Positions 27,396 through 54,620 of a DNA stretch of 64,000 nt are shown in pieces (positions within the stretch are counted from its first letter, which is position 1; each line of letters starts with the position of its first letter). The notes beneath the pieces were generated by a model that made no database searches, was not told the DNA's origin, and saw only the letters and a program-made list of their open reading frames with translations. The stretch lies in the NCBI GenBank assembly GCA_010015805.1, contig ML978121.1:1612001-1676000 (forward strand). The letters run 5' to 3'. Source of the DNA: Rhizodiscina lignyota (lineage: Eukaryota). The position numbers were made by a program, and so were the translations under genes.

Positions 27396-29359
27396 GGACA
27401 CAGAGCACGCGCTGAGCAATGGTACGAGAAGTAAGGGCGCGAGTCAGAGAACTGACAGGAGGATTTGCAACTTGCAAGGTCGGATCGCAGAAAGTTAAAT
27501 GGAGATTTAAACCCTTATGAAGCTGCGAGGGAGGCACCGCAAGCCGTGCCATCTTGACAGCTCTTGGAACGCCCCTTTTCCTCCCGCGTGTTGGACAGGC
27601 ATGGTTTTGATGAGCGAAATCATCGTCCTGATGTGTGGCTGCACTAAGCGAAGCAGCGCCAATCATGGCGGAGTGACTGGCGAATGTTGCTCTTGCGCTC
27701 TGAGTGGCGCTCCCGTCAGGTATCGGTGGACCGTCGCCAATATCTCGTTTCTTACGCGAGTGCCGTCATCTCCGCACACGAAATCACGCATGACACGGAG
27801 CCGCGCTCCTTTCGGCGACTCTGATGCGTTCTACAGATCGACTTCCGCGGGAGCGAGGGGCTTTGCGTCGAGATTGTGTTGTCGAGTCGATAGCTTTTAC
27901 GAGATGAAGCTGATTTAGCGCCCGACCCGGTCAGGCCGGACTCCCTCCGGTCGAGTGCGAGCCCCACAGGGCTGCCCCTATCCTGACTCTCGGTACCCCC
28001 ACAACAAATTCTAGCGCTCCCTTTTACGGCTCACAATGGCTCCAAGGAAGCTTGACTCCAGGCACCGCTGCTGCTCGCAGAGCTGATCGGCGTCCCGGTG
28101 GAGAGAATGCTTTTACTGCCGATAGAGCACGCGTCTGCCGTCCGCCCGCCACAGCGTTCGAAACCCCAGCTATGGCGTCTGCCCTCGTGGTTGGGCGTCA
28201 TTTCGTGGCTCAAGTCTGCTCAAGTCTTGGGGAAAAGTCGTACGAGATTTTGATGTTTGGGCTGAAATGGTGGGCTTTGGCAGAAATGCGATATCTGAGG
28301 GCGCACTTAGGTCGTGCTGAACAAATAATGAAGGATTCCTCACAGCAGCTACCGACCCTCCTGTGCCACGGCTGATGACCTGATTCTCAAATCTCAATTA
28401 GCTGGACGACCGAATTCGAAAGGGCCGCCTGATGTTGGCGACGATAAAGAGAAGCTGTCGAAGCTGTGATGCGCCCGGTCTCACTTTAGCGACGCCGACG
28501 TTGACGGCAAACTCCAATGGGCCCCAAAGCAACGCCGCTCCACGCCTATCGGGACGCCTATCTGAACATCCGCAGCCCAGCAAGGTAGGACCGGATCTAA
28601 AACAGTCACCTGCGCAAGTGGCGATGATCGTGAGACCCTATATTGAAGCATTTAAGCCTGTAAATCCAAACGAGATTGAGTAGGATTCACAGGCAGAGAT
28701 CGACGGCGTTTGAGTGATGGTGTTGAGCTGCGGGATTAGAAATACGGAAACTTCTGAGCTCCCACTCGGTTGACACGCTCATTTTGAGCAAGCCAGTAGG
28801 CCGAAATGGTTGGCATCGATAACAAGAGTGCTGACACAAACTAGTATGCCTGTTATTATTTACGCTAGATACAATCATGAATCTTCGAGATGGACTGCGC
28901 ATGCTTCTTCCACGTTTGAGCTCATGACGCTGCTCCCGTATGAGTGGGATGATCTTCTCGCCAAACTTAACCAACTTAGTAGTTTGAGAGTTCTTACGTC
29001 CTCAAATGTAACGAGCCACTGCACGATGATATGCTTGCTCTACTCGTCTAGTTTTACTTGGTCATCAGTTCTGGCTCATCCGGTAAACATGAGCTGAGAT
29101 GCAGAGAGGAAAAGGCCGTTATAGCGCTCGTCATATTGCCTATTTCACGGCACTGATGCCGTGGTAACGAAAGCGGACAAGGCTCGTTCGTGCTTCAATG
29201 GTGGATCGATCTGAATGGAAGTTTGTGCGATGGAGTTCGAGGGGCTCGGAGTAAAGGACACTGTTCATTCGTGCTAGATATATTTAGATGTCTTCTTCGA
29301 TTACACAAATGGCCTTCTGGACCTCTGCAATACATTTGTCGCTGGCTCCGCTGAGCGAT

Positions 29360-30901: not shown

Positions 30902-32329
30902 TCAGCTGACCAACTTCGCCAGGCTTGAGATACCGTGCTTCTCCAAGTGCTTCACGGTATCACAAATCTGCTTAGCGCGCTCTTCGCCGTAAGCGTCCAC
31001 AGTAATCCCCATGAACTTAGTTGCCACACCCTCCCAGGTGATTGGATTCTCCGGCTCTCCTAACGGCGCCTTCAAATGTTCTCGAACCGTCGTACCGTCT
31101 TCGTACTCGACATCCAGACTCGACTCGAGCAGACTGTACGAGTCGTTGACCTTCACAGTAACTCGATCGAGAAGTTTATTGACGGCTGGGTCGCCAATGT
31201 GGTCATACACCTTCCAAACAAGCCCAGAGCCGTACAACCATGCTACAACAGTCTGAAAATAGGAACTGAACTGCGCGTCAACGATGTTGTTCGGATGTGT
31301 CTTATTCGGGACTGCAGTGCCGACAAGCGCGTAGCCCCCCTCGCCGATCCAAACCGTGAGGCTTTTCACTTCCGCGTTGCTCTTCTTCCTCATCTCATTA
31401 GCCAGCTCAATCTGGCCGTGGGTTATGCGACATGCGGGGAATGGCTTAATAGCACTCGTTACAAACATCCAATGCTCTTTGAACGGCCCGATTTTAACTT
31501 GTGGAACAGCTTTGCTATTGCCATAGGCGTTTAGAAGACCGTACTTGCCTTCAAGTGGTTCCGCAGCGCCAAGTCCTCCGGATTCTGCCATTGCAGTGCA
31601 GATGAAAGCATTGTGTGCAGAGATTCCGGGATGGAGTCGTTTGTTCCAGCTTCCATTAGCAAGATATTGCATAGATCCTGAAGCCATGGAGATTGCAAAC
31701 CCAAAGGCATTTTCAATCACTGCTGCGCTCAGCTTTCTTAAAGAACTGATCGCGGCAATGGCGCCAAACAGGCCGGCAGTACCGGTATTATGGAATCCTC
31801 TCTCGTACCCAGTAGTACTAATCGAACAGCCAATTCGGCAGGTGATTTCGTATCCGGCTGCCGCCGCTGTAAAGAACTCTTCTACCGTCGACGTGGGTTC
31901 TTTCTCGGCTTCTGCGAGAGCAGCAGAGAAGACGCTCACTCCAGGATGTAGCGTGGCCACAGCGTGTGTATCATCAAAATCAAGACTGTGGGCGAAAGCA
32001 CCGTTGAGCATCGCTGCGTAGTGCGGAGACCATGACTGTCCGTTTGCCATGACAGTAGCCTTGCCGCCTCCGTCAAGTGTCTTGATTGCGTCTAAGAATG
32101 GCCCAGTAGATTCTGCCAGTGTCGTTGCGCCAGCAGCAACTCCAATATAATCAAGAAAATATGTTCGAAGCTTCCCAATTGCGTCTGATGGGAGATCGCC
32201 GAATTTTAAACTGGCAACGAAAGATGCGCAATCTTTTGTCGAGAGCGTCGATCCCCGGTCCTCCTTAGTTCCATTCACGCCTATGCCATTCTGATGATCG
32301 TTTTGCTGAGGTACAGACGTGCCATTCAT
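30902..32329 (-). CDS. MmgE/PrpD family protein (2-methylcitrate dehydratase / aconitate decarboxylase / epimerase superfamily), intronless
   Basis: Motifs HSLDFDDTH, TLHPG, GFHNTGTAG, WNKRLHPG, IKPFPACRITHG, AQFS and PLGEPENP. Confidence 0.92.
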   Translation of the reverse strand: MNGTSVPQQNDHQNGIGVNGTKEDRGSTLSTKDCASFVASLKFGDLPSDAIGKLRTYFLDYIGVAAGATTLAESTGPFLDAIKTLDGGGKATVMANGQSWSPHYAAMLNGAFAHSLDFDDTHAVATLHPGVSVFSAALAEAEKEPTSTVEEFFTAAAAGYEITCRIGCSISTTGYERGFHNTGTAGLFGAIAAISSLRKLSAAVIENAFGFAISMASGSMQYLANGSWNKRLHPGISAHNAFICTAMAESGGLGAAEPLEGKYGLLNAYGNSKAVPQVKIGPFKEHWMFVTSAIKPFPACRITHGQIELANEMRKKSNAEVKSLTVWIGEGGYALVGTAVPNKTHPNNIVDAQFSSYFQTVVAWLYGSGLVWKVYDHIGDPAVNKLLDRVTVKVNDSYSLLESSLDVEYEDGTTVREHLKAPLGEPENPITWEGVATKFMGITVDAYGEERAKQICDTVKHLEKHGISSLAKLVS

Positions 32330-32599
32330 AGCGCCGTTTGTAGTTCCTTGCGGTACGTAGATTCGCGAAGATTGTCCCCAGTTGAAGTGCCTTGATGTGA
32401 CAACTAATTACCTCCGTGCTCACTTATTACAGATTTTCGATCCTTCTCTTCACCTCAATATGCTGTAATGAATATGTCCAAGTTGAATTAAAACTTCTTG
32501 CTCTTCTCCATTGTGAAAATCAATGTCTGTCCCGCGGTCTATGAATCGGCTTGTTAGTCTCCGCAACCCTGTCGATCATGCAAAGCTCGATCTCCAGAG

Positions 32600-32613
32600 C
32601 CGAGTTCTCCGCA
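32600..32613. promoter_or_regulatory. CCG-N6-CCG direct repeat (CCGAGTTCTCCGCA), candidate Zn2Cys6 site
   Basis: Lies in the divergent PrpD/aconitase promoter. The identical 14-mer occurs at 57341. Confidence 0.3.
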
Positions 32614-33084
32614 TTAAACAATCAGCATTCAACAGAATGGCCTCTGGTAGGGCTTAGCTTGATCAAAAGCCAGCTATTGGGTCTAGGGGGTGCCAAAATG
32701 TGGGGTGTATGATGCGGACTGACCGCCGACCAACGACATCGGAAGCACCGATCACACGTGTCGGAGTTCCACCTTCAACCCCTTCGAGGTCGCACCGAAA
32801 GCTTCATTCACTTAGCTTGACATGGATTCTCCGTCCCATCTGACAATGGCCACACTGCGGTGTCTCCGTGAATGCGAAATGCAGTCGCGACCGGCAGTAT
32901 CAGGAGTGATGTTGTGGACCGGTCGTCGCAAATATGTACTCTGGTTATGATAGAGGACTGAACATTTTACTATTCCACCTATTCCATTTGTTCGATCACG
33001 GAGTATATCTCAAAAGAGTCCTGACGTAACATCAAGATTGCCAAAGAAGAGTCTGAAGAGACTCGTATTCTGTGGTTACTAACG

Positions 33085-35747
33085 ATGCCTGCTTTGACTG
33101 AAGACGGCTTATCTGCAGTGAAGGAGATATCACGACTCCTCCAGGACATAAGATCGATCAGTAATATCGGTCTGGCAGACACTGGTATACTTGACGGCCT
33201 CTGAAGACAGTGCCATGCTAACAATGAGAGGTAGATCTATCATCACCGCATCCGAACTTTCTCGAAGTTCTTCGCGAGGTGTCCGACAGCCTGTTGCGAA
33301 ATGGGCACACTCGTGAAGCTGAGGCCCTCCGCGACGTTTCAGTGCATTGCACTACTTCACCAGATTTCGGCGGCCTAGGATTCACACCCTCCCACGAATT
33401 CAGCAAGGCTGATGAAGCGGAGATCACTTTTCTTGTCAGTGCTTACTTAGAAGCCTTGAATTATCAAGACCGCCACGACTCGCCAATCGAACCTCTGTAC
33501 CAACGACCTGCTGGCCGCCGAGGAATGACCTTGGCCGAGAAGATATTCGCAGCCCATGATGTGGAGAGGCGTGGGGAAGTGCAGCCGGGTGACGTGATCC
33601 GTCTTGATGTTGATTGGATTATCGCCTCAGAATTATCGTGGGGTGCCATGGAGAAGACATACGATGATCTCGGAAGACCAGGCATCTTTCGGAATGATAG
33701 AGTCTGGCTCGCCGGAGATCATGTCGTCGATCCACGAGTTAGCAAGATTCCGAGGATCAAGGCGCTGATTGAGAGGAGTGAACGGGCACGACAGGTTTTC
33801 AAGTTGACAGAGTATCAAGGAATGAATGTGAGTGTTTCGTATACTTGTTCCCTTATCGTCTCTGGCTTTGGAATGATTGTGTCTGACTCTACTGAAGTAT
33901 ACAATAATGCATTCCGAGTTCTGCAGGGAGAGAGCACAGCCAGGGATGCTTATTATTGGGTCCGATTCGCATACTTGCTCTGCAGGTTCCGTGTCTAGCC
34001 TTGCAATTGGTCTTGGTGTTGCCGATGTAACGCTACCTCTTGTTACAGGAGAAACATGGATCAAAGTGCCCGAAACGGTAGAGATACGCTTCATCAACAA
34101 GCCAAAACCAGGCCTCGGTGGGAAGGACGTAATCCTTTACGTGCTAAAACAACTCAAGAGAAACACGGTAGCGGCTGATCGTGTCGTGGAATATACCGGG
34201 TCTGGGCTGAAGTTTCTTTCTTGTGACGCGCGGTTTGCAATCTCAAATATGACTACTGTAAGCTCAATTCCTATGCTTCGAAGAGCCGACTGATGCGCTA
34301 CAGGAATTCGGAGGCGTTACTGGAATCTTTGTACCCGATGATACAACGCGCGATTTCGTTGAGAGGCGTAAGAATCCTAAATACAAGAAGTATTCTACGT
34401 ACTACCGTCCAGACGATGATGCGAGATATGCCGAGAGCTATATCATCGATCTGAATCAAGTGGAGTCTTTTGTGGCGCGCTACCCCAAACCGGACGATGT
34501 TGTCCCCGTCAGCGAAGTCGCCGGAATAGCTTTAGATGGCTGTTTCATAGGTGCATGTACGACGGCGTATGAGGACCTGGTTCTTGCGGCTCTTGTGCTG
34601 GAGGTTGGCTTGAAGAGAGGCATGAAGCCGACGAAGCATGGGAAGAGAAAGGTCGTCCCAGGGTCGAAGCCAATCCTACACGACTTGCGTGCTTGGGGTC
34701 TTGCCGACGTATATGAACAAGCTGGATTTGAGATTGGCGTTCCAGGATGCAGTTACTGCGTAGGAATGTCAGCGGACAAAGCTGGTCCAGGGGAGGTTTG
34801 GCTCAGTAGCCAGAACCGAAACTTTGAGAATAGAATGGGCCCTGGTACGCTGATTCCAGGCCCTACAGACCCTCTGTTTGGCTGCTAACAACGCGTTAGG
34901 CGCTATTGGCAGCATTGCTTCGGCCGTCACGGTAGCCGCGAGTAGTTTCGATATGACCGTTACAGACCCGAAACCTCTTCTCGATGAGATCGATATGAAT
35001 CGCCTTGGAGAGATACTGGCGATTAGGGTGCATCCCGAAACTCCATTGCGATACGTGGAACCGGGCTCGAGAGACACGGTTGCCAAACCGCCGCGTGAAC
35101 CGGCTTCGACCGACGAAGAGCTTCAAGGGACGGATAATGCTTCAGAGGCCGCTGATCCTGTGTCCCGAGTTATCAGCGGCAGAGTACAAACTTTGGGTGA
35201 CTTTATCGACACCGACGCCCTCGCACCGGCTGAAGCGCTTGTCGGCAATCTCTCCAAGGAAGAGATCGGCCAATACTGCCTCTATCACACGCACCCTGAC
35301 TTCCGCCGTCGCATCAAGGAAGACGGCCTTAATATCGTAGTCGCTGGTAAAGCTTTCGGCGTAGGTTCGTCTCGCGAAAATGCTGTTACCGCGCTGCAAG
35401 GAGCGGGAGTCAAGTGTGTGATTGCCCGCTCCTTTGCTTTTATCTACGCGCGCAATCAGCCCAACCTCGGAATGATGGGTATCGTCATGACTGATGGGAA
35501 ATTTTATGAACTGGCACACGACGGAGAAGAGATAGAGATTGATGTTGATCAGCGGGTTGTAAGAGTTGGCGGCCAGGAGTTTGGATTTAATTTAAGCGAA
35601 CTGGAGAGGCAGCTATGGGAATGTGGTGGGATGAGCCCGGCGTTTACAAGATGGGGAAAGGATTTGTTAGGAATCATGACTAGCAAAAAGGTGAATGTGC
35701 AAGGAGCTGAAGGAGCGTCCGCACATAATGAACAACTTCAATGGTAA
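33085..35747 (+). CDS. Aconitase-family [4Fe-4S] hydro-lyase, fused LeuC/LeuD (isopropylmalate isomerase/homoaconitase-like); 5 exons
   Basis: Motifs [26 protein letters not shown]; Fe-S ligands FIGACTT and [20 protein letters not shown]; swivel domain [10 protein letters not shown] and GVGSSRENA. First intron 33185..33234. Confidence 0.9.
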
Positions 35748-36118
35748 AAGGAATGGTGTCAGGGCCGCCTTCCGGGAGAGAACAAGGCAATTCTGAAAGA
35801 TGCCCCCTCTTTTGTAGTTGCTCGGATTATTACCATCGGCTCGGTGCAATGGCGAGCTGTGGGAGAGTGTGCTACTTCGCTGTCTTCATCTTGTGTTCGC
35901 ACCGTGGATGATGTACAGAGTAGCTTCGGTAGCTGCACAACGCCATGGAGCACATGACAGTTAAATTGATGTTGGCATTGAAAGACTCTCGCCCATACCT
36001 GTGATTTGCAGGTAAAGATTTCTCCCAGATTTACTCCTTTAGCATAACGCTTTGAGTAATGACCAATTACAATGCTTTCCGAAAAGTCGTGAGATTTCGT
36101 CAATGGAAGCGCAGTCTG

Positions 36119-37159
36119 CTATTTCCTCGCAAGCCGGAGAATGTCTTGATTAAGATCAACTCTCTGAAAGTCCGGGAGAGCGCCAGATGCGCCCCTTACT
36201 GCCGTCGCAATCAGGACATCCTCCTCAAGGCCTTGGATCCACAGACGCACATCATCGACCCTCCTCCCTTTCAACCATGCCTCTGCATCGTCAACTTTCT
36301 CTCCCCACGTCCCATAAGTACTACATCGCATCACCGTCCCGGGCTTTGGTGCTCTGACGTTTTTGAATTCCAGTGCTTTCAGCCAGGTCGCGAGGAGGCC
36401 TTCGCCAACCAACTTTATATACGCTTCCTTGTACGCGTAAAATGCATAGAAGCGCCGAAGCTTCGCATCTATGATCAGCTCGGAGCTTATCTGCTCTGTA
36501 CGTCCGTTCTTCAGTGTGACTTGGACGTCCCGATTGCGCCTGCAGATCCGATCGTGACGACCAAGTTCCTCAGCTGAGACTTCTGTGCCGTCAAGAAGCG
36601 TAACTGATTCAATGTTGTACTTGATATCCCAAAGTTCGGCCTGAGAGAAAACTTCCTCGTAGATGTCGACAAAGCCGTCGAAGCCCTCCTCGTCAATGTG
36701 CCGATAGTCGTTACGCTCGTTTACGCACGTGATATCAACGCCAACCTCTACACTTTTCTTCCTCGTCCCCACAAGCGCTACTAGACCTGCTTGGTGCGAG
36801 ACATTGAAGTCGACCGATGCGATTGAGCCATTTGGGAAGATGTAACACGGCTTGCCATGTATTGGATCTCCTTTCCTGCCGAATCGGATGCTGGTCCAGG
36901 GAACTCGGAACGTTTTCGAAATGAACGCTCGCTTCAACAGCGCCGATGCTAGGCTCATCTTCGCATCCTGGAGCTGCATCTTCCGACATATTGAGTCGCG
37001 TTCGTCTGGGCTAACGAGTCGCAGCTCTTCAGACGCCTGGTGATACTGTTAAAGTTGTGCGGATGGGGTTGAGGGACGTGCGCGTACGGCATCTTGAATT
37101 CTTACACCCTTCCACAAAGACCTTGTATCCAGGAGCCAGCATGTGATATCATCTCCCAT
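36119..37159 (-). CDS. npgA: Sfp-type 4'-phosphopantetheinyl transferase (NpgA/Lys5-like); 2 exons
   Basis: Motifs WLLDTRSLW, DAKMSLASALLKR, HGKP, FNVSHQAGLVAL, VGVDI and FYAFYAYKEAYIK..GEGL. Confidence 0.9.
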
Positions 37160-37752
37160 TGGCATTAGAATCGGTGCAAGCCAAAAGCTTCATGCTACTT
37201 TGAGGGATGGTCTTGGAAATGCGAAGGAGTGACGATCGGTAGAGCCGAAGTCGTTCGGGGCCGGCGGAGTTGATCTCGTACTATTTTTGGAAACACTTTG
37301 CTTCACCGGTGCTGATTATCATCTGCTCACGCTAGCATACCCGCTTCCAAGTTAAATATCGATTAAAGACCACTTTTGTATCGTTTCATTCACACACTAA
37401 GCCACACATTTGATGGGCCACAACTTTTGATTAGTCTCCTGAATCCCATAGTGATGAGTGTTGCTGCCACCAACGTGGAGATCTTTCGCGTGACTTTATC
37501 TCTCTGGATGCCAAATAGCAATCTGTCCCTCTCGATCGCTTCTTTACACTTCACGCGTGCTGTTTCGGTGTCCTGAAATGGCCGGCCTTGATTCATCTAT
37601 TTTTGAGTTCTTTAAGTGTCCGAGACTCGTAATCTCGGGACTATTTCAAGCCGAATTGGACGCCTTATTTTCAAATACATAACGTTCACAGTAGCATCTT
37701 CGCCTGAATGAATTAAAACCCTTACTCCAAAGTCATATTTTTGTAGCTCGAA

Positions 37753-38961
37753 ATGAATGGCCCCAAATTTCCTATCCCAGAAGAGTTCCGCTCTCAGGTT
37801 CATCATGTTGACAGCCTCGACAACCGATCGGACGAGGAGATTCTCCATTCTCTCACAAAACCGGTCGCCTTGACATCGGAGAAGAACATATGGACCTATT
37901 GGCATGCCGGAGTTCGCGAGATGTCCGCTTGGTGCCAACGGAATGTTTTCAACTGGATCCGCCTCTGCGGCCCATCTTGGTCTGTTCGAGTTCTCGACAA
38001 CATCCCGGACTCGCCCAACAATGCCCTCAAATGGGTCACACCAGATCTGCTACCCGATACGTTTGTCAAAGGCACAATGGATGGGCCCTACGTTGGACCC
38101 CACAGCGCCGACTTTCTGAGGGGCGCATGTCTTCAACTGCACGGAGGAGTGTGGATGGACGTTGGTTGCATTTTGATACGGTCAATAGACATGATCTGTT
38201 GGAAGCAGCTAGAAGATCCGGAGTCGCCTTTCGAAGTCTCGTGTCCTTGGATGTATGGCACTATGATGGCAAATCATTTTGTTGCAAGTCGGAAGGGCAA
38301 CCAGTTCATCGAGTACTGGTAAGAGGTAAGGATCTCAACATGGGTGCTCGTGCTGACACCTCATAGGCACAAACTCTTTATTCATTTGTGGCAGGGCCGT
38401 ACAAATCCCGGAGGCATTCTTCAGAATCCTCTTGTGCAGTTTGGCTCAGAAGTGAAATTCGAGGACTCACAAGCGCGCAACTTCCACTGGGATTTTAAAG
38501 TCGACATAAAAACCGTCATGGAATATATTGGGCAAGTCCTTGCATGGCTCCGACTGTGTATGCTTGAGGAACCGAACGGATTCAACGCTCGAGAGTATTA
38601 CGGCAACAGAGTCCCGATAGAGGACACGGTCGGATTCACTGGCCAACAGCTCTTCAACGTGCTTGCAACGCGACTGGATGCGCAATCAGAGGAGTACAAA
38701 GCGGCTTACAAGACAATCTGGAGAGTATTGACTCGCGCGACAATGCAGAAGATCACACACGGAAAGAATCTTACTAAGACCGAGGCCTTGGGCGTTCTCT
38801 GGGACAAGCCGGAGAACGAAGGCAAGGATATCGAGCCCGGGACGTTCGCAGAGCTGCTTCGGTATGGGAGTGTATACTTTGAGCAAGACCGAAAGGAAAT
38901 AGATTACGTTAAAGCTGAAATGCCTGACCATGTCATCAGAAAGGGACTGTTGGAGCCATAG
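37753..38961 (+). CDS. Capsule polysaccharide biosynthesis-like glycosyltransferase (GT32-like); 2 exons
   Basis: Motifs SEKNIWTYWHAG, HSADFLRGACL, HGGVWMDVG and NHFVASRKGN. Intron at ~38319. Confidence 0.8.
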
Positions 38962-39026
38962 ATAAGCAGAATGTTCCGGAGACTCTGTTGCGGACCTTAC
39001 AAAATTGTATCATTGCGTACATCTCC

Positions 39027-41280
<2,254 letters not shown>

Positions 41281-42180
41281 TTACGGATCCTCAAGTCTGC
41301 TTGTTTAGCTCTTATGTTGTAGCCATCCTTGGCCGCGAGGAAGTAGAGCTTAGACCGGTTGAATTCAAGCGTGCGCATTATTACGACCATAGATAGATCC
41401 TTCAAGCGCACAATTGGAGGAGTCCCCAGTCCTATCGCGCTTAACCGGATACTGATTACTACCGCTGGCAATTGATGGCCACAGGAGATTATAGTCAGTT
41501 ATTAATTCCTTTCTATTCTTGTCAGGGGCGAATTAGCTCTTGAAGAAATTACACTCAGCCTAACACGGCCTTCTGAACGCCGGCGGTACGCCGATTGCCC
41601 GTAGGGCATAAAGGCACGAGAATAATTCTTGGAGAGCAGCTCAATACTACTGAACCGATGAGCTTCGTGATAGATGTGTAATTAATGAGATAAGTCTGGA
41701 AGGCTGCTTCCTCAGGCAGAACAGCAGCGATCTTGCGAGACTCTGACGAGTGGTGGTTGTGACGGCCGTCCCTGAAATTCAAATCATCGCGGTCGAGCAT
41801 AAGTACGAGACTGTTCCGTGCGAGTCGCGCGTCAAAATCACTCGATTGAGGATGCATATTCACTGAAACAATGAAGTACGAATGGCCTGGGTCGCTGTGT
41901 CGCTGTGTCGTCGTGTCGTGAAGCCAGACGGAACCGTTGCCATTTGGGGGCTTTACTTTCTTGGCGGCGGAATGTAAGGCTCCCGATTGGAAGCTCGTTG
42001 CTGTACTCTATTCCGTACTGGCTCGCACTTCCTCCAGGCAGTCACTGTTACGTGAGCTCTCCTCACAGCACTTCAAGTACTCTGCACGTGGCTGAAAATG
42101 AACGAAACGACTTCGTTTACACGCGTCTGAACGCTCTTTCTGTCAAGGTCTCGAGGTTTGAGACCGGGGTTTTGGCGGCG

Positions 42181-43133
42181 ATGGCAGAACACAGCAAAGC
42201 TTTCTTCGAGAAGACCGACGAAGGCGAGGTCAAGAAGCGTCAGGAGGCATTTACCCAGTTCCTTGTCGATGCTCCCACAACAGCGAAGCTTGCAGAAGCA
42301 CGAAAGTTGCTTGAAGTCTACTCCCGTGTCAAGTCAGAGGAAGTTCTTCCTCATGTGATTGCTATTGTGAGTGGGTGATTACTCACAACCGCATAGTCAG
42401 ACGGGTTGACGAATCACAGCGTAATAAAGCTTGGAAGATAGTATGAGCATTTGACTGGTCTATCCCGCGTCAGCTCTTGCTTATAGCATGAAGGACCCTT
42501 TCCCTTGCATCGGCCAGTTCAACTTTTTGGACCTCAGTGTCAGTAGATCGCCGTTCTACCCCGAAGTTCTTGAGCGTGTCAAGCATGGGCACAAACTTCT
42601 GGATCTGGGGTGTTGTCTTGGGTGCGAAATTAGGGCTTTTGTGAGGCAATTTCGTTTCTTATTCATCCACACTACGATATTTCGCCACTCGGAGTTTTTG
42701 TGGCTGATCTCATGGTGGACTAGGTTGCAGATGGCGCTCCATCTGAGAATCTGTATGGCTCAGATATCAATTCTCACTTCCTAGCTCTGGGATACGACCT
42801 GTTTCTGGACAAGTCAACGCTGAAATCCACTTTCATCGCCGCCGACCTTTTCGCGAGTCCGTCTCCTCTCGACTCCCTGAACGGACAGATGAACATCGTC
42901 TATGCGGCTTCGGTCATACACCTATTTGATAGGCCAGGGCAAAAAAAGGTAGTTCAGCGCATTACTCAGCTGCTGGTAACGGAACCTGATAGTATTTGCC
43001 TTGGAAGACAAGTTGGTGACAATGGGACGTAACCGCCAACTTAGTTATAGATGACCCAGGGTGCCTAATCAAGGACAGACCAGGATATGAAAAAAGCGGC
43101 TTCCTCATTTTCTGCGTACGCAGAGTGACTTGA
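42181..43133 (+). pseudogene. Class I SAM-dependent methyltransferase (AusD/Trt5-like) with an internal deletion and frameshift
   Basis: [43 protein letters not shown]. The frame stops at RQVGDNGT*, while the family-type tail QWDVTANL...FLIFCVRRVT* continues in another frame from 43020. Confidence 0.72.
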
Positions 43134-43613
43134 TCCGAGCGGTTTTCTCATATTGCAGTTAATTTTTTGCCACGGACTGTTACGTTTGCTTCGCGAAATT
43201 TTCTGTTCACAGCGTATTTCTTTCAAGTCATTGTCATCGTTGCTCAGATGCTTACGGGGTCCCGGAACGTTCCATTCATGTCTGACGCCCAGTTCTCTCG
43301 CAACAGATTGGCATAAGATTAAGGCAAAATTAACTAAGGGCTCTGTCCAACTCGCACGTTGCGCGCGTTCCAGAGTCTTACACATTCGTACCTCTTCCCA
43401 ATTAGGGTCCCGCTCACTTCAGCTGACTCCAAACAAAAGTTGCCTCTGCGCAAGCTCGCTAATTCATATAAGACCACAAGACACCACTACTGAAATCTTC
43501 TCAAGTTTATCGATTGAGTTTACGCCGCGCTTGCTCGCGTGTATTTGCAGGGACTTCTTCAGCCGTACCATCCGCACGCATCGGACGAGACGACCTTCGT
43601 GACACCAGCAGCC

Positions 43614-44405
43614 ATGGACATTGCGGATAGTTCAGGGCCAGCTCTACAACTGAAACCAGAGCAATCTATAATATACTCGAACAGGCAGCTACAAAGTCCT
43701 TTTTTCAACAAGCTTCCATGCGAGCTCCGCCTCGAGATTTACAAACTCGTCTTCACGGTACCGGTGCATATCGAAGTTGGCGAACACGCATCATGGGACG
43801 ATCTGAAACAGCAATTCTCGATCCTTCTGACCTGTAAGCGCCTGTGTGTCGAAGCACAGGATATTCCGTTCGAAATCAATACCTTCCGTGACTCTCTCTG
43901 GAGCTATAAAGCTTGTCGACTCGAAGACAGCAGAGCTCGAAACGTTGCCCCTCGGATATGCCACCTCCAGCTCAATTTCCACGCATGGCGCTACCTGGAT
44001 TTCAAGTGCCCACTTGTAAACGACTTCAAGGAATTGCGAGAGCAAATTGCGAACTTCAAGCAAATCTTCAACCAATGTGGAAATCTAAGAAGTCTCGAAA
44101 TCCATATCCATGAATACAACGGGAATAAGGACCTCCTGGAGAGAGGGATACGGATTCTAGAAGACTTGAAATTAGGCAGTTGCAGAGTCACCATAGCCAA
44201 CTGGGCGGTCGCCGGAGTCAGCGAAGAATGTGTTGAGGAATTGTCGAATGCACTCAACGTGGCAGATGCGGTCAATGGAGGTGGCGGCATGTGGGCGGAG
44301 AGCGCGACTAGCTACAGAGTGGTACGCGCAAAGCATTGTGCATATCATTGTTGTAGAGGAATGACACTGAAATTCAAAAGGTCGAAGACGAGTGCGGCGT
44401 TCTGA
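43614..44405 (+). CDS. Hypothetical protein with F-box-like SPFFxLPxELRxxIY motif
   Basis: Intact ORF with QSPFFNKLPCELRLEIYKLVF...SILLTCKRLCVEA...NLRSLEI. Confidence 0.7.
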   Translation: MDIADSSGPALQLKPEQSIIYSNRQLQSPFFNKLPCELRLEIYKLVFTVPVHIEVGEHASWDDLKQQFSILLTCKRLCVEAQDIPFEINTFRDSLWSYKACRLEDSRARNVAPRICHLQLNFHAWRYLDFKCPLVNDFKELREQIANFKQIFNQCGNLRSLEIHIHEYNGNKDLLERGIRILEDLKLGSCRVTIANWAVAGVSEECVEELSNALNVADAVNGGGGMWAESATSYRVVRAKHCAYHCCRGMTLKFKRSKTSAAF

Positions 44406-45032
44406 CGGGCCTCCATTAACCAGTTTCTCCACTCGCGAGGACACTATTCGAAAAAGCTCCCGTTGCCTCGAGCAAAATCTGGACCACCTCAGCTGCAAGA
44501 CTAAAAAGACCACATGACGACATAAGCATTCATGTTAGATCTTACTCCTCAAAGCCCGAACGATTACACCGCGCCGTGGACTTCCGCAGCTTGGCTAGCG
44601 GAGCCTGAGTGGGAAAGTCGGCCGTCGATTCCGAATTTCGACCGATCTTGTCCCGAGCCTGAAAAGTTGTTCAAGAATTGGAATTGTGAAAGTTAGCCGT
44701 TGGGCCTTGTCCGTTTGTTTTGTCTGCTCCAAGCTAGAATGGCAAATGGGGAGATGAAATCCCAGAAAACATGGATATGCTGATATATCGGCCACTGAGC
44801 CAGTTCGCAGGGCGCCGTGACAATGAATACATGGAGGATACCAAATGTACACTTGTCACTTTATGTTACTGTTTCGTCTTACCAGCCTTGAAGTATCTCT
44901 TTTTGTCACCTATCCAAAGTCTGTAAGGTCGATCGAAGACGATATCGAGCCGGAGTATGTACAGGCACAGCTCGAGAGGCAGGAGTAGTTGATACACAAG
45001 AACCAATGCCAGTATTGAGCGAAACAACTCTC

Positions 45033-46010
45033 TCACACCCCTTTTGCAAACGCAAATCCTCCTGCAGCCTTGTCGAACTTGACGCACTCTACCAGACCAA
45101 CAGCGTTGAAAAGCCCTTTGACGCCCTCTTGTTTCTGTCTCTCTGTAACTTTCATATCCCCCGTACCCTTCAACTGTGCACATGCGGCACTAGTACTTTC
45201 ATACACAGCAGTCAGCGCCAGACCGGGATAAATGATTAGCTTGAAACCCATCTGCTGCGCTTCTTGACTAGTCATGTGCGGTGTTGCTCCTCCTGGGACG
45301 CTATTCAGTAGTACAGGTGTAGGTGCGAGGTCGATACAAATCTGGCGACACTGGTCAAGCGATGTTGGTCCTTCCAGGAATCCTACGTCTGCACCGATCT
45401 CAATTGCTTTCCTGAGACGCCCGCAAGCTTCGCTATAACCGAGCTGCTGAAGTGCGTCTGTCCGAGCGATTAGAACAATATCCTGACCGAGAGTCTGCCG
45501 CATCTCTTCTCGAGCCAGGACCGCAGCACGGATTCGTGAGAGGAATGTCTCCTCATCGACCAGTTCTTTCCCGGCTAGGTGACCGCATCGCTTTGTCTGT
45601 ACTTGGTCTTCTAGATGCATTGCAGCGATTCCAGCAGTTATGTATGACTTGACGGTCCGCGCAACCATGATCGGACCACCGTAGCCAGTGTCCGCATCTG
45701 CGATCACTGGCACCGTGCGGTCCAACGAAGCGATCATCGCCGCGTTTTCGAGCATCTCATTCAGAGTTATAACACCGAGATCTGGCATACCCAGCCGCGA
45801 AACTGCTGTGCCTGCCCCTGTCTTTGATTCCGGTTAACATCACGAAGGAGCCTGAAAGTCAGTGAGGCGTACAACGTAAAGACAATCAAATCCTTCCCTT
45901 AGCGCCAGGCGGGCTGTGAGCCCGTCATAGACTCCTGGGCATATGGTAATCTTGCCATCTCTGGAAAGAAGCTCATGAAGACGAGCTGCTGCTGACTTGG
46001 GACCGGTCAT
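45033..46010 (-). CDS. Isocitrate lyase/PEP mutase family C-C lyase (2,3-dimethylmalate lyase / methylisocitrate lyase-like); 2 exons
   Basis: Motifs CPGVYDGLTAR, TGAG, IADADTGYGG, HLEDQVQTKRCGHLAGK and IARTDA. LIIYPG carries Pro where oxaloacetate hydrolases carry their diagnostic Ser. Confidence 0.9.
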
Positions 46011-46917
46011 TGGCACGGCGTAAGAGTAGGTTACTTGGTGAAACAGCCTGTTCGCAAAAATTTAGTATGTCTGCATAGAGCTTCGAAATTCTGAGATATA
46101 TGTTAGCTCATTTGATTCCTGAAAACAATGTAGTAGAATATTCTCCGACGCCCCCAAGTTGAGGACTTCGGCGGTGCCGATCTGGTCGGAGTAGAGCGGC
46201 CAAGGACACAACGAGCGCAATAAATTCCTCATTTGGAAGCTATCCGCATTTCACCGAGTTTAAGGCAAATAACATTGGCGATACTGCTCAAGCGGCGACA
46301 CGAACGAGGTGTGGTTTTTGAACATGAAAGGTCGACAGTATCTGTAATGAAGAGCAGTCTTTAGGATGCTGATCCTCTATCCTACCGTCATCTCAATATT
46401 CTTTACCCCAATCTCCAAGAACTGGCAACTCTCCTCACCATGCGGCCCCTTGGCTAGGCCTTGGGCATAGTCAATAGAAGAGCGATTATCCACCTTCGTG
46501 ACAAGGTCACAAGGATGATGTAGATGTCCTAATGTCCCATGAAACATACACAATGCGCGCGCCCAGTGCTCCGCTGGCCGACCTGACAAGCTGACCCAGC
46601 CTAGCCCGCTTTTGGTATGGACGCGTTCCAGCGCGTCGTGCGCGTTATGTCGATTGAAAGTAGCTCTGCTCCCTTCTTCCAAACTATGCTTTGGACATGT
46701 GCTAACTTTTTCTTGTAATGCGACTTCTCGAGCAGTCGTGTGATGCACAAAATTGGAATGCAGCGCCTTTGTGTCGAGAAGGATGTGGACCGTCGCCGCC
46801 TAGCTGTCTCAGAGACTCCCTCGGTTGATGAATCCCGATCTGCCTGTAGTGCCTTTGATGCCACTTATTAGATTGTTCAATTGCCTTCCGTCTCCGTCAT
46901 CATCAAACGCATTGGAC

Positions 46918-47742
46918 ATGGAGCAGGAATCGATTTCCTTCATTTCGTCGCTTGCCAATCGAGCAAAGGCTGTTGGAGCCGAAGACACTTGGTATTGCAT
47001 TGCGGTAAAGGCACCTCTTTTGATCTATATCTCATCTTTTAACGTGGTCCAAGGCTTGTTCCTTTGCAGCATGCAACCAGGGCCAATTTCTCGCGGAAGT
47101 GTATCGAACAGCCATCGCGCCTCATCAGGCAGATCACCAAGCGAACCAAGTTAAGCTTCAGCGGATCAAAGGTCCTCATTCTAGATTTGGGGAACCGAAA
47201 GAAAAGACGACTGAGCTCAATCAGAATCAATCCTTAAAACGTCTATGATCATAAGCATCCCACGAGTTATTAATGCAGCTCGTGCGTTAATTGGAGCCAT
47301 CCCTAATCCCAAGTCGAACGAATCGGCGAGTATTCGCAATCATATCAAAGAACCTAGCGTCACAGACGACCGAGGCCTCGATTACATGCGTAATATATTC
47401 AGAGCCGACCTGGACCCCTTTGTAGCGTATATGGATGCGAACTGGCCCGACTTGAGGACTCTGGTTTGCACATTCATATACGGCTACTGGCAATCCGACG
47501 TTTCCATTATTGATGCTATCACCACCTCCCAGCTTAATATTGCTACATTGATGGCCATGGACGCCCCTCCTGAAGTTGTTTGGCATATGAGAGGTCTCAT
47601 CCGCAATGGAGGCACTCGGGAACAGCTTCAATTTGCTACTGACATCGCGATGGAGATCTGTCAGTTGACAAACGTACAGCTAAAGAACCAGATGCCACTC
47701 CCAGAGGACGTCATCAACGAAGAGAGGCTCATCCGAGTCTAA
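46918..47742 (+). CDS. AhpD/carboxymuconolactone decarboxylase-like protein; 3 exons
   Basis: ESILKTSMIISIPRVIN, RGLDYMRNIF, FIYGYWQSD and VVWHMRGLIRNGGT. Divergent from the lyase gene. Confidence 0.7.
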
Positions 47743-47790
47743 GGCCAGAGCCAGTGCCAGCAACGGGTTAGAAATTTAATAACGCTGTTC

Positions 47791-48640
47791 TCAACAATTC
47801 CACCCGCCGTCAATGCTGTAACTTGCGCCTGTAATGTAGCTCGCTTCGTCCGACAACAGGAAAGCGATCAGCTTAGCCACTTCTTCTGGCTGCCCTTCTC
47901 TGCCAAGTGCAACACCAGAAATTGTCTCCGTGTCCCTCGAACCGGCCCCTCCCACGCCCTGCGCAACTTTCTGGGCAGCTCCTGACATGGGTGTATTGAT
48001 CCTTCCTCTTGAGTATGTGAGTATGCATGTCGTATTATGTTTGCACCTTACTTACGAACAGATAACGTTCACTCGAATGCCCCGAGCACCGACCTCCTTC
48101 GCGGCAGATTTTGTCAACCCAAGAACGCCATGTTTACTCGCCGCATATGATGATAGTTTCGGGCGGCCAATGAGACCCGCAATGGAGCCGGCATTGACAA
48201 TCGATCTTCCTTGCTCGAGGTGCTTTAGCTGGGCACGCAAGCAATACACAACTCCCATTACATTAACGCCCAGCATGAACTCCCATTCGCTTCGGCATTC
48301 TTCTATATCCTGCTCGTCGAGTCGATTAAATGCCGATGGATTTGGGAATTACACCTGCCATATTTGCGGCGCCATCTAGCTTCCCAAAACGCTGAACAGT
48401 TTGCTTTATCCATTCTTCTACCTGTGCACCATCTCGGACATCCAAAACGTAGGTAAATATTTCAGCCTTGCATTTCGATTGGATCTCATTAGCAGCTCTT
48501 TTCAGGCCATCGTCTGATAGATCCGCAAGCGAAAGATTTGAACCTCGACTGGCGAGTAACTGTGCTGTAGCATATCCGATTCCTGATGCTGCTCCTGTTA
48601 TGGCTACCACTCGTCCTTTGAACTGCTCGGCGAATGACAT
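47791..48640 (-). CDS. Short-chain dehydrogenase/reductase (classical SDR); 3 exons
   Basis: [13 protein letters not shown], catalytic YAASK, IRVN and [11 protein letters not shown]. Confidence 0.92.
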
Positions 48641-49015: not shown

Positions 49016-51004
49016 TTATATCTTTCCCCCTTCAAGGAATTTCTTTGGGATTAGAACGGTCTTAGCTCTTAGATACTCCCCCAAATTTTTCGCCAACGTA
49101 TCAAGCTTGGAGCCTGAGTTATAACCTCTGTCCAACTGGTTTTTTAAAAGGAAGTGTACAGCCCGTATATTGCGCATTTCGAACCTGTACACTTTTCCAC
49201 CGGAGTAGTCCTCATCTCCTAAAAGCTCTTTGATTTTCGCAATCGACAATAGACTCCGAAGCCAATCGAATTGCTCCTGTGTGCTCACGTAGAAGCCGAC
49301 GTTTGCGTCGGAAGCCTGGGAATACAATCAGCGGAACTCAAATGTTTCTTCCGAGAGCGATGTACCTTGTCTCCGGACCTAGCCAGCGCGATATATCCCA
49401 AAGGTGCTTCTATGGCCTCTCCGAACAGATCCAGCGAGACTGGATCTGGCGTATCGTAGGAGTCTTGTGCTGGATATTCGCGAGTTTCAGGCGGAAGCGG
49501 TATTTTTGTGGTTCGCTCATCATCGAAAAGCAAATGGAGCTGATGATTGCACACGTTCTGAGGGATGAGCGTCACGAAGTACTCAAAATAAGATTTCGCG
49601 GTCGACTGCCGCAGATCATTGCTCCGGCTCACTCCCGGACAGGATTGCAGAACAGTCTCGTAAAGACGCCTGCTGAAGCCATCTGGGAGGCTCGGATTGA
49701 ACAGCTCGGCGTCTGGTGCCTGGGCAAATATTCGAAAGTCCACAGTTGCTAGTTCTTGATTTCGCGAGTTGATCGGGGATGTTCCGTGGACGTGGAACTT
49801 AAGAAGGGAGAACTTTTTTATCAGCTCTTCGCCAATTGCGTATCTCGCCTGCTCCTCCATCCACTGGCACTTCTCTTCGATATCGAGGCCAACAAGGTAA
49901 AAATGCCATCTGCAAGGACTCAGTGAGGCGTTCTAGAAAGAGGTAAGGTTCCTAAATACTCTGCCTGGTATCCTCCATGCGCTGTGACTCCGACGCGGGT
50001 TGTTGGGGGTGGAGGCAAGCCTTCAATGCCACTGACGTGAACTCTGTCTTCACCTCTTTGCTCCAACTGGATATTATGGATATCTGCGACAGTATCGGAG
50101 TTGAAGTAGAGCGGTCCGGAGATTTCGTAAACAAGCTGGGCGGTGACTGTTTCGGTGTTGACGACACCACCTGTATCCTTCTCTTTGACAATGTCGAACT
50201 CTCCTTTCCAGTCAACCTCAGCGATGGGAAAGCCCATATTCAGGTGTCGCCCTGTTCTCATTAAGTCTTTGAACCGACTGTAATACTTTTCTATCGTTAG
50301 CTTGTTCTATTAATCATGAGTCCATGTACGAACCCCTCCAGTTACAAATGCTGAACATTCTATTATGTGGCCCGCTATCAGAGCTCCAGCTAACTCTTTG
50401 TATTGGTCTGCAGTCCAGGAGTGCCACCATGCTGTAAGGCCTATTGTTGGACCTGCGTCACTAACTCTCCCGCAGATGACAATGTCGGCCCCCTGGCGTA
50501 GCGCTTCAGCGATTCCAAGGCTGCCCAGATATGCCTGAGCGCAAATTGGTTCGAACCCCCATTCCTTGAGGGTCTTACCGTCAGTTGTGCTCCGAAACTC
50601 TGTCCCATCCGCGGCCATTTGCTTGAATTGTAAAGTCACGTCGTCCCCTTCTACCCAAGCCACTTTCATTTGATATCCCGCATCTTGAATGATCTGTTTG
50701 CACACCTTTGCAAGCAACTCAGTATCGCTTGCGCCAGCATTGACTACGAGTTTCGCGCCGTTGCGAGCAAGATCATGGATCGCGGGTTCGAAGCATAGAA
50801 GGAATGTGCTGGCGTATTGTGCATTCTTCTTTCGTTCGTCCAGAGGCTGCTGTTCGAGACTGTCGCCAAATTTCTGCAAAAGCCGTTGTTTCCCAGCTCC
50901 ATAACCGGTCATAACATTCTGCATTCATCAAATCTTCGTCATATACGTAGATAACATCTCCGCTGTAAGAAACGTACTTCGCTTAACCAGTCTCCGACAA
51001 TGAT
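49016..51004 (-). pseudogene. AtuA/DUF1446 family gene 1, body only (first exon displaced to 54543..54620)
   Basis: IIVGDWLSE|NVMT, VNAGASD, GADIVICGRVSDA, AGHIIECS, RSGDKASDANVG, LDTLAKNLGEYLRA. The body splices without stops, but no start codon or RIAGCSG motif lies directly upstream. Confidence 0.8.
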
Positions 51005-51005
51005 T

Positions 51006-51426
51006 CTGGTAAGGGGCGGGCGCTGCTGAGCAATAGCTCAGTCAAATTCTAGTCTCGAGGAATTGAAATTGTCGTGGAGGTGTAGATGCGCATTTTGGTG
51101 CTCAGTGAACTCTCTCTTCAGCTAACCGTCCGGCCTGGGGAAAGAAGAGGCCTCTAAGTCTGGGGAAATCCCGTCCAGCATTGTACCTCCGGTAAACGAA
51201 GCCATCTTGGCAGGTTATCGTCTTCCTTTGCGCACACACGAAGCCAGCAAGGTTCACAGATGCAAGATGCAAGCACGGATAGAACCAGCTATGTTGTGTA
51301 CTCCGCAATTTTCAACTTCTGCAAGAGGTCTAAAAGTGGGGCGCGCTAATATGAGCTAATGATTAAGCGTTTTAACCTTATCTACATATGATTAGCAACA
51401 CGTCGAACAACTCGAAGAATATCCAT
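51006..51426 (-). pseudogene. Degenerate Zn2Cys6 transcription factor N-terminus
   Basis: MDILRVVRRVA..., an intron, then TSCRS*KLRSTQHSWFYPCLHL...C. This is a decayed CxxC-RxRKLRC...PCxxC pattern with stops and frameshifts. Confidence 0.45.
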
Positions 51427-54542: not shown

Positions 54543-54620
54543 GGCAAAGACCCTGTCTGTAAAGCCACCACTGCATCCTGCAATGCGTACTGGTCTTCTT
54601 CTGTTACTTGTGGGCGACAT
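54543..54620 (-). pseudogene. Displaced first exon of AtuA gene 1, fused in frame to the MFS body
   Basis: MSPTSNRRRPVRIAGCSGGFTDRVFA matches KRPIRVAGCSGGVYDRKRA at the start of AtuA gene 2. Confidence 0.8.

What the first reader, a model, noticed from the sequence alone, without database searches (positions are those of the whole stretch)
30902..48640. PrpD-like + fused LeuCD aconitase + dimethylmalate-lyase-like trio: an uncharacterised branched di/tricarboxylate pathway
Seen: intact MmgE/PrpD and aconitase-family genes share a divergent promoter. Ten kb on, an ICL/PEPM lyase (Pro-type, not oxaloacetate-hydrolase-type) is divergent from an AhpD/CMD-like gene, followed by an SDR. None has an obvious mitochondrial presequence, and no citrate synthase or PKS is present. 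Known: dehydrate/isomerise, rehydrate, retro-aldol cleave is the logic of the methylcitrate cycle (PrpD-Acn-PrpB) and of bacterial dimethylmaleate breakdown (LeuCD-like DmdAB + Dml). Inference: a cytosolic catabolic route for an exogenous alkyl-malate/maleate/citrate-type acid, possibly fed by the AtuA, crotonase and MFS genes.
Basis: partly seen in the sequence, partly recalled or inferred. Interest (0 to 1): 0.7.

Follow-up and report, generated by a model that had tools for sequence, protein, structure and literature searches.

The report
Conserved fungal hydratase–lyase gene pair
Two long-orphaned fungal enzymes, an aconitase-like hydratase that appears to be cut down from a leucine-synthesis fusion protein and a dimethylmalate-type lyase, sit together as a gene pair across filamentous fungi and probably split branched maleic/malic acids without coenzyme A, while the neighbouring PrpD-like gene is only a local addition.

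Summary
The genes are real and intact, and none is the canonical Pdh1, Leu1, Lys4, Aco1/2 or Mcl, which lie elsewhere in the genome. The conserved unit is a pair, not a trio. The aconitase is an AcoC-type protein (58% to A. fumigatus AcoC, never characterised). It is head-to-head with a Pro-type DMML/OAH-class lyase at a second locus in this genome and in 9 of 9 informative metagenomic loci. It also has consecutive accessions in four other fungi, and A. niger An15g07720/An15g07730 fit the pattern. In the window the pair is split by 9.3 kb and the PrpD-like gene occupies the lyase's usual place; no other locus examined showed that link. The PrpD-like protein has the His/Tyr set of epimerases (IDS epimerase, methylsuccinate isomerase), not PrpD. 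AcoC's N-terminal extension aligns to the C-terminal helices of LeuB in LeuB–LeuCD fusions, so it probably descends from an isopropylmalate isomerase. Both enzymes lack the arginines used for a third carboxylate. Most likely: a cytosolic, CoA-independent route, alkylmaleate → (2R)-alkylmalate → 2-oxo acid + carboxylate (e.g. citraconate → pyruvate + acetate). The substrate is inferred, not shown.

The parts
33085..35747 (+). AcoC-type fused LeuC/LeuD-like [4Fe-4S] hydro-lyase, 813 aa; exons 33085-33184 (alternative donor 33161), 33235-33827, 33898-34257, 34304-34844, 34900-35747. Core member of the pair.
33249..33494 (+). N-terminal three-helix extension of AcoC (about residues 39-120), a probable remnant of the C-terminal helices of LeuB from an ancestral LeuB-LeuCD fusion
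45033..46010 (-). Pro-type DMML/OAH-class ICL/PEPM lyase, 308 aa, intron 45822-45872; KRCGH loop with Cys125, Arg166, Pro245. Core member of the pair.
30902..32329 (-). MmgE/PrpD-family protein of the IDS-epimerase/methylsuccinate-isomerase type (H114, D117, H128, Y175, H180, K230, K295); local neighbour, not conserved with the pair
32330..33084 (.). 755-bp divergent intergenic region; in other loci the lyase lies on this side of AcoC. No PrpF remnant and no shared motif found.
35748..45032 (.). 9.3-kb block separating the pair: PPTase-like, glycosyltransferase, GMC oxidoreductase, methyltransferase, 2EXR/DUF7730 genes; not part of the module
46918..47742 (+). CMD/AhpD-like gene, divergent from the lyase; link to the pair not found elsewhere
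47791..48640 (-). SDR; link to the pair not found elsewhere; first exon junction uncertain (very short intron or frameshift)

Best explanation
AcoC and the Pro-type lyase form a conserved two-enzyme, cytosolic, CoA-independent catabolic module of filamentous ascomycetes. Step 1 (inferred): AcoC uses its [4Fe-4S] cluster to add water to an alkyl-substituted maleate (citraconate, 2,3-dimethylmaleate, 2-ethyl-3-methylmaleate or a longer alkylcitraconate), or to isomerise a 3-alkylmalate, giving a (2R)-2-alkylmalate. Step 2 (inferred): the lyase cleaves C2-C3 by Mg2+-dependent retro-aldol chemistry to a 2-oxo acid plus a carboxylate, e.g. (R)-citramalate to pyruvate + acetate, or dimethylmalate to pyruvate + propionate. 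The acid is probably taken up from outside under a Zn2Cys6 regulator in lineages that keep the transporter and regulator. AcoC descends from an isopropylmalate isomerase fused to LeuB and has lost all but the last LeuB helices. Shown: gene models, family placement, residues, conserved linkage, homology of the extension. Inferred: substrates, direction, induction. In this window the pair was split by a rearrangement (the layout is a circular permutation of the head-to-head pair, as duplication-loss would leave), and the PrpD-like epimerase is a local neighbour.
For: Linkage: a second AcoC (62%) + lyase (64%) pair is head-to-head on contig C6. Consecutive ids: CAG9945173/4, KAH8660471/2, V2G26_021442/3, PV09_08079/8. 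Of 16 AcoC-clade metagenomic loci, 9 had at least 700 bases upstream and all 9 carry the lyase there on the opposite strand (L139/L140 are one sequence and L071/L135 near-identical). A. niger An15g07730 (cytosolic aconitase) and An15g07720 (OAH-class, cytosolic) have adjacent tags (passages, PMC6862759, PMC6320622). Hydratase: three cluster Cys (436, 500, 503) and the DH, DSH and SSR motifs are kept. Best sequence matches in PDB are methanogen homoaconitase and isopropylmalate/citramalate isomerase subunits. The small-domain loop aligns V646 to the V of IPMI rather than the Arg of homoaconitase, with Arg in 1 of 50 homologues. Ancestry: sister lineages are LeuB-LeuCD fusions whose LeuB passes the leuB cut-off (L073 467 bits against 353) and a LeuA-LeuB-LeuCD fusion. 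Bacterial relatives lie near LeuA/homocitrate-synthase-like genes in 39 of 80 loci and IPMDH-like genes in 16 of 80, with the lyase in 0 of 80. Lyase: best PDB match is A. niger DMML (265 bits; OAH 235; PrpB 131); Thr250 stands where PrpB has Arg, and 0 of 130 aligned lyases have Arg there. A fungal transcription factor adjoins 4 and an MFS 2 of 10 scanned AcoC-clade loci. A. fumigatus acoC is barely expressed on glucose or ethanol (PMC3556520). The CoA-dependent Pseudomonas itaconate cluster does not support growth on citraconate or (R)-citramalate (PMC9875883), so a separate route has a niche.
Against: No activity, growth or induction data exist for either enzyme here. AcoC has Ser165-Glu166 where aconitases have Gln-Asp, of unknown effect. 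No regulator or matching transporter was found beside the pair in this window or at C6, and 6 of 10 scanned loci showed no regulator. The A. niger genes are expressed moderately in all four production conditions tabulated (RPKM 28-46 and 50-95; r = 0.78, n = 4, not significant), which fits housekeeping as well. That An15g07730 is the AcoC orthologue XP_001397294 is my inference. The extension-LeuB match is weak in score (8.8, 6.4 and 4.6 bits; one fusion, L070, missed at -4.4). Trees were fast, midpoint-rooted methods.
Confidence: 0.55

Rival explanations
1. Same chemistry, internal substrate: the pair is a metabolite-repair or overflow valve that removes citramalate, ethylmalate and the matching maleates made as side products of isopropylmalate/homocitrate synthases and Leu1.
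For: Descent from leucine-pathway enzymes. Steady expression of An15g07720/30 in A. niger. A. niger makes citramalate and secretes citraconate when cimA/mfsB are overexpressed (PMC6862759 passages). No transporter or regulator at the two loci in this genome.
Against: acoC is near the detection limit in growing A. fumigatus. Regulator and transporter neighbours occur in several loci. Two pairs plus a third related aconitase in one genome suggest diversified catabolism.
Confidence: 0.2
2. The PrpD-like enzyme was recruited to the module in this lineage as an epimerase that converts the wrong stereoisomer of an alkyl-succinate or alkyl-malate into the form AcoC and the lyase accept, making a local three-step route.
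For: Adjacency within 1 kb has about 0.06% chance under uniform placement. All seven IDS-epimerase catalytic positions, including the Tyr, are present. Its nearest bacterial relatives lie beside acyl-CoA dehydrogenase (5 of 11) and CoA-transferase III (6 of 11), the methylsuccinate-isomerase context. Its clade is often fused to the isomerase PrpF (13 of 120 hits).
Against: No second example: 0 of 80 metagenomic aconitase loci, 0 non-self contig matches, and none of the three closest paralogues in this genome lies near an aconitase or lyase. None of 11 bacterial relatives has an aconitase, lyase or PrpF within about 8 kb. The region is rich in unrelated accessory enzymes.
Confidence: 0.12
3. 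One reading: a cytosolic methylcitrate-type route, PrpD dehydrates, aconitase rehydrates, lyase cleaves an isocitrate-type acid.
For: The three folds match PrpD-Acn-PrpB and two of the genes are head-to-head.
Against: Fails prpD, aconitase and prpB equivalog cut-offs, which other loci of the genome meet for prpD and aconitase. The lyase lacks the PrpB arginine and AcoC lacks the loop arginine. The trio is not conserved.
Confidence: 0.05
4. The pair runs biosynthetically or toward another product: aldol condensation then dehydration to an alkylmaleate for a secondary metabolite, or supply of oxaloacetate-like substrates for oxalate.
For: Both reactions are reversible in principle; DMML has some OAH activity (recalled).
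Against: No PKS, NRPS or citrate-synthase neighbour in the window or in scanned loci. The marker is Pro, and a Ser-type lyase exists elsewhere in the genome.
Confidence: 0.08

Closest known systems
Eubacterium barkeri DmdAB + Dml (with Mii), end of nicotinate fermentation (recalled)
   Same: LeuCD-like hydratase plus ICL/PEPM lyase acting in sequence on a branched maleate/malate, without CoA; the C-terminal domain passes the LeuD/DmdB small-subunit model (120 bits against 109).
   Different: One fused polypeptide with a LeuB remnant, a different LeuCD lineage, fungal, two-gene head-to-head unit; no Mii/PrpF in the locus; substrate untested.
Aspergillus fumigatus AcoC (XP_747512)
   Same: 58% identity over 779 aa, same clade, same extension.
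   Different: The paper passage seen (PMC3556520) notes only 15% identity to AcoA and low expression and did not study it; no partner or function was given.
Aspergillus niger 2,3-dimethylmalate lyase (An07g08390, PDB 3FA3) and OAH-class protein An15g07720
   Same: Best PDB match, Pro marker, KRCGH loop, Arg166 equivalent to DMML Arg161.
   Different: Orthology to An07g08390 not shown; linkage suggests An15g07720 instead. That fungal DMML has no known pathway is recalled from Narayanan 2009, which was not held.
Methanogen isopropylmalate/citramalate isomerase and LeuB-LeuCD fusion proteins
   Same: Top sequence and structure matches for both domains; sister lineages are LeuB fusions.
   Different: LeuB reduced to about 80 residues; partner is a lyase, not a dehydrogenase; the genome has its own Leu1 and two LeuB-like genes.
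(S)-(R)-methylsuccinate isomerase and IDS epimerase (MmgE/PrpD family; PMC12290011)
   Same: For the PrpD-like gene: seven catalytic positions with matching spacing, including the Tyr; bacterial relatives in a similar gene context.
   Different: No acyl-CoA dehydrogenase neighbour in the window; fungal clade often fused to PrpF; substrate untested.

Membership tests
Canonical fungal Leu1 / Lys4 / Aco1-Aco2 | Score above leuC, homoaconitase or mitochondrial aconitase equivalog cut-offs | tested here: not met
   P0002: 154/560, 177/530, 146/825; other loci score 688, 1245, 1259
Aconitase superfamily [4Fe-4S] hydro-lyase | Three cluster Cys, catalytic motifs, large plus swivel domain fold | tested here: met
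   model pLDDT 81.8, TM 0.90 to MJ0499 large subunit
AcoC group | Clade with XP_747512 and N-terminal extension | tested here: met
   58% identity; clade support 100 in fast trees
DmdAB dimethylmaleate hydratase | LeuD/DmdB-type small subunit | tested here: met
   TIGR02087 120.2 against 108.95; the model also covers archaeal LeuD
DmdAB dimethylmaleate hydratase | Hydration of 2,3-dimethylmaleate | not testable with these tools
   needs enzyme assay
2,3-dimethylmalate lyase (DMML) | ICL/PEPM lyase motifs with Pro at the marker | tested here: met
   KRCGH 123-127, Arg166, Pro245; Pro in 18 of 18 linked lyases
2,3-dimethylmalate lyase (DMML) | Orthology to An07g08390 | tested here: inconclusive
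   An unlinked Ser-type paralogue also has 3FA3 as best hit; the DMML sequence could not be placed in the tree
2,3-dimethylmalate lyase (DMML) | Cleavage of (2R,3S)-dimethylmalate | not testable with these tools
   needs enzyme assay
Oxaloacetate acetylhydrolase (OahA) | Ser at the marker position (marker recalled; Ser seen in 3LYE) | tested here: not met
   Pro245
2-methylisocitrate lyase PrpB | prpB cut-off and the Arg after the YP motif | tested here: not met
   211 against 354; Thr250
2-methylcitrate dehydratase PrpD/Pdh1 | prpD equivalog score | tested here: not met
   no TIGR02330 hit at 1e-5, NF042438 29/950; L001 scores 645/458
Methylsuccinate isomerase / IDS epimerase type | His, Asp/Glu, His, Tyr, His, Lys, Lys catalytic set | tested here: met
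   H114 D117 H128 Y175 H180 K230 K295; Tyr in 116 of 120, matched by spacing
Methylsuccinate isomerase | Gene next to a methylsuccinyl-CoA dehydrogenase | tested here: not met
   no acyl-CoA dehydrogenase among the scanned window ORFs; criterion from a prokaryote study
cis-aconitate decarboxylase (CadA/IRG1) | One-base site without the catalytic Tyr; decarboxylase activity | tested here: inconclusive
   mammalian CAD 78 bits, below B. subtilis homologue 109; Tyr175 present; fungal CadA not compared
Methylcitrate cycle | Methylcitrate synthase partner and mitochondrial targeting | tested here: not met
   no citrate synthase among scanned ORFs; N-termini not presequence-like by composition

The most novel reading that the evidence does not exclude
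Ascomycetes built a new catabolic pathway by truncating a LeuB-LeuCD leucine-synthesis fusion and pairing it with a retro-aldol lyase. The pair is the missing physiological context of fungal DMML-type lyases and breaks down alkylcitraconates, such as those derived from fungal alkylitaconate and alkylmaleic-anhydride metabolites or methylated gentisates, to pyruvate plus a fatty acid. PrpF isomerases and PrpD-like epimerases, unlinked or recruited locally as here, funnel alkylitaconates and wrong stereoisomers into it.
Probability: 0.25. Interest if true: 0.78.

Novelty: new variant of a known kind. Interest (0 to 1): 0.6.

Why it matters
It gives two orphan fungal enzymes, AcoC and the non-oxalate OAH-class lyase, a shared and directly testable function. 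A CoA-independent sink for citraconate and (R)-citramalate would matter for Aspergillus organic-acid production, where these acids appear as products, and for how soil fungi handle antimicrobial branched dicarboxylates. The LeuB stub is a rare molecular trace of a biosynthetic fusion enzyme turned to catabolism. It also corrects annotation: these genes are labelled aconitate hydratase, methylisocitrate lyase and 2-methylcitrate dehydratase, and fail those family tests.

Tried and rejected
PrpD-aconitase linkage: 1 of the contig-length matches, the window itself; one PrpD-lyase match outside this genome is within chance (0.23 expected). PrpF remnant upstream of the PrpD-like gene: none. Shared promoter motif across 11 intergenic regions: nothing convincing; no background model was run. 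Fold searches with the isolated extension gave only generic helical bundles (best Z 6.2; no Foldseek hit at E 0.001), and the PDB profile search and Atlas search of it gave nothing useful; these are inconclusive, not evidence against. Expression: no RNA holder listed. Bacterial loci L223/L224 with LeuC, LeuD and PrpD belong to a more distant aconitase group (32-33%) and have no lyase hit. An IQ-TREE run on the aconitases did not finish; FastTree was used. The lyase tree does not separate linked from unlinked lyases significantly (37 of 500 shuffles as low), although a 39-row clade holds no known linked member. Literature: ten searches returned no paper treating the two genes as a module; the library lacks most subscription journals. 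Supplements of PMC6231085 held none of five locus tags; other supplements were not opened and could bear on the An15g07730 identity. Earlier-finding look-ups by sequence and words found nothing on the pair. No complex prediction was run because binding is not claimed.


Full report
Observation. All named genes are present at the stated places and have open frames: a 475-aa MmgE/PrpD protein, a five-exon 813-aa aconitase-family protein head-to-head with it, and 9.3 kb on a 308-aa ICL/PEPM lyase, a weakly scoring CMD-like gene and an SDR. Five unrelated genes lie between aconitase and lyase. A database hit names the genome as Rhizodiscina lignyota. The genome has at least 10 MmgE/PrpD loci, 7 aconitase-family loci and 5 DMML/OAH-class lyases. 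Canonical Pdh1, Leu1, Lys4 and a mitochondrial aconitase pass their NCBIfam cut-offs at other loci; a second mitochondrial aconitase and an isocitrate-lyase-family gene with a presequence-like start are also elsewhere. The window proteins fail those cut-offs.

What is conserved. The first half of that test splits the trio. Aconitase and lyase are linked: a paralogous pair (62% and 64% identical) is head-to-head on contig C6. Among the top 120 homologues of each, 10 pairs share a contig length, 8 outside this genome, against 0.145 expected from offset lengths. Four named fungi give consecutive identifiers (Clonostachys rosea, C. chloroleuca, Xylariales PMI_506, Verruconis gallopava). Of 80 metagenomic loci, 16 belong to the clade with the N-terminal extension; 9 have at least 700 bases upstream and all 9 carry the lyase there, divergently; two are duplicates or near-duplicates, and the other 7 loci are too short to tell. 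Tables in two A. niger papers list An15g07730 as a cytosolic aconitase and An15g07720 as an OAH-class protein (passages); that An15g07730 is the homologue XP_001397294 is my inference. One Talaromyces pair I checked was unlinked, but that lyase falls in a clade without linked members. PrpD behaves differently: the only aconitase-PrpD contig match is the window, none of the 80 metagenomic loci has PrpD, and its three closest paralogues here lie near other genes. CMD, SDR, AtuA, crotonase and the window's MFS were not found near any AcoC-clade locus. In the window the PrpD-like gene stands where the lyase normally is, and the block from aconitase to lyase is a circular permutation of the usual pair; duplication and loss would produce this (inference).

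The aconitase. It is 58% identical to A. fumigatus AcoC, XP_747512, which Fazius et al. found barely expressed and did not study (PMC3556520, passages). Cluster cysteines and catalytic motifs are intact; the model matches methanogen isopropylmalate isomerase large subunit at TM 0.90. In the swivel-domain loop V646 aligns with the isopropylmalate isomerase Val, not the homoaconitase Arg, and 1 of 50 homologues has Arg; the role of this loop is recalled, while an Arg that fixes substrates in aconitases is described in the passage. Bacterial relatives (41-48%) sit by LeuA/homocitrate-synthase-like genes in 39 of 80 loci and dehydrogenases in 16 of 80, never by the lyase. Closer eukaryotic relatives include LeuB-aconitase fusions (L070, L073, L142, Pestalotiopsis PFICI_10514) and a LeuA-LeuB-aconitase fusion; an Atlas cluster of 437 such fusions, commonest in Zoopagomycota, scored 0.89, a lead only. 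The roughly 80-residue, three-helix extension of AcoC aligns with the last helices of LeuB: one BLAST alignment to PFICI_10514 runs from residue 39 into LeuB residue 299; an extension profile scores 8.8, 6.4 and 4.6 bits at that place in three fusions and misses L070 and three other fusions, against a maximum of 2.6 in 1200 shuffles and 1.0 in 239 unrelated proteins; hhalign gives 66% probability over 30 columns. The evidence is modest in score but exact in position. AcoC is best read as a truncated leucine-pathway fusion, which points to alkylmalate/alkylmaleate substrates.

The lyase. Best PDB match is A. niger DMML, then OAH, with PrpB far lower. It keeps Lys123, Cys125, Arg166 and Pro245; Pro is present in 18 of 18 linked lyases, and no aligned lyase has the PrpB arginine at position 250. 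This fits cleavage of a dicarboxylic malate rather than methylisocitrate. DMML's substrate and its lack of a known fungal pathway are recalled from Narayanan 2009, seen only as a reference. Orthology to DMML itself is open.

The PrpD-like protein. PDB matches are B. subtilis IRG1-like, mammalian CAD and IDS epimerase; PrpD proper does not appear. It has all seven IDS-epimerase positions, including the Tyr that marks two-base epimerases (PMC12290011, abstract and passages; residues). Eleven nearest alphaproteobacterial relatives examined (33-36%; 12 of 301 genomes matched, one contig too short was left out) have no aconitase, lyase or PrpF nearby; 5 have an acyl-CoA dehydrogenase and 6 a CoA-transferase III. 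An epimerase of a substituted succinate is more likely than a dehydratase. Its adjacency is improbable by uniform chance yet unreplicated, so I keep local recruitment as a rival.

Mechanism and verdict. Most likely AcoC hydrates an alkylmaleate to a (2R)-alkylmalate and the lyase splits it to a 2-oxo acid and a carboxylate, in the cytosol and without CoA. It works like DmdAB + Dml (recalled) but is not shown to be a member. Regulator neighbours in 4 and MFS neighbours in 2 of 10 scanned loci and silent acoC favour an external substrate; steady A. niger expression and the absence of a regulator here favour repair. The CoA-dependent itaconate route does not handle citraconate or (R)-citramalate in Pseudomonas (PMC9875883, passages). 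Also read as passages without bearing: PMC6767652, PMC6231085, PMC7609661, PMC13491972, PMC9804861, PMC5247736. Ten searches found no paper describing the pair. Functional pairing about 0.9; alkylmaleate/alkylmalate chemistry about 0.75, split 0.55 external and 0.2 internal; novelty: new variant of a known kind; interest 0.6.

Noticed in passing
L070:5157-8255, L073:49-3294, L142, proteins P0433, P0437: LeuB-LeuCD fusion proteins in eukaryote-like contigs and in Pestalotiopsis, and one LeuA-LeuB-LeuCD triple fusion of 1559 aa; relatives P0441, P0443 and L081 have a long N-terminal part without a Pfam hit that may be a decayed LeuB, and L081 has a divergent lyase-like gene upstream in tandem.
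   Followed up: partly
L039:5737-9786 (G000:C15), L080, L082: A sister clade of AcoC without the extension lies head-to-head with a conserved sugar-porter-type MFS (72-76% identical) instead of a lyase; also present in Scheffersomyces.
   Followed up: partly
L053:8029-10000 (G000:C14:618059-620720): PrpF fused in frame to a PrpD-like paralogue (54%); a second, stand-alone PrpF lies at C5:2142702 among housekeeping genes.
   Followed up: partly
window 47791-48640: The SDR's first junction near 48310-48352 is either a 40-43-nt intron or a frameshift; the public contig shows the same letters.
   Followed up: partly
window 49285-60280 and L042: Two AtuA-family genes, a crotonase, a TRI12-like MFS and an ABM gene, followed beyond the window by an alcohol dehydrogenase, a hydroxyisobutyrate-dehydrogenase-like gene, a metallo-lactamase and a second CMD gene; possibly a separate cluster.
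   Followed up: no
window 25113-27765: Formyltransferase C-terminal domain plus enoyl-CoA hydratase domain in one ORF, a HoxX/HypX-like architecture (name recalled), unusual in a fungus.
   Followed up: no
window 36119-37048: Sfp-type phosphopantetheinyl-transferase-like ORF directly after the aconitase; not checked whether it is the main copy or a paralogue.
   Followed up: no
L027 (G000:C6:2046442): An unlinked lyase paralogue with Ser at the OAH marker, next to an SDR and a Zn2Cys6 gene; candidate oxaloacetate hydrolase.
   Followed up: partly
L055:1966-9999 (G000:C10): A PrpD-like paralogue (44%) near a 3-carboxymuconate-cycloisomerase-like lyase, an NmrA-like gene and a transcription factor.
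   Followed up: no
L223, L224: Bacterial operon with LeuC, LeuD, a homocitrate-synthase-like gene, a DHDPS-family aldolase, PrpD and, in L224, an aconitase X swivel gene and PrpF.
   Followed up: partly
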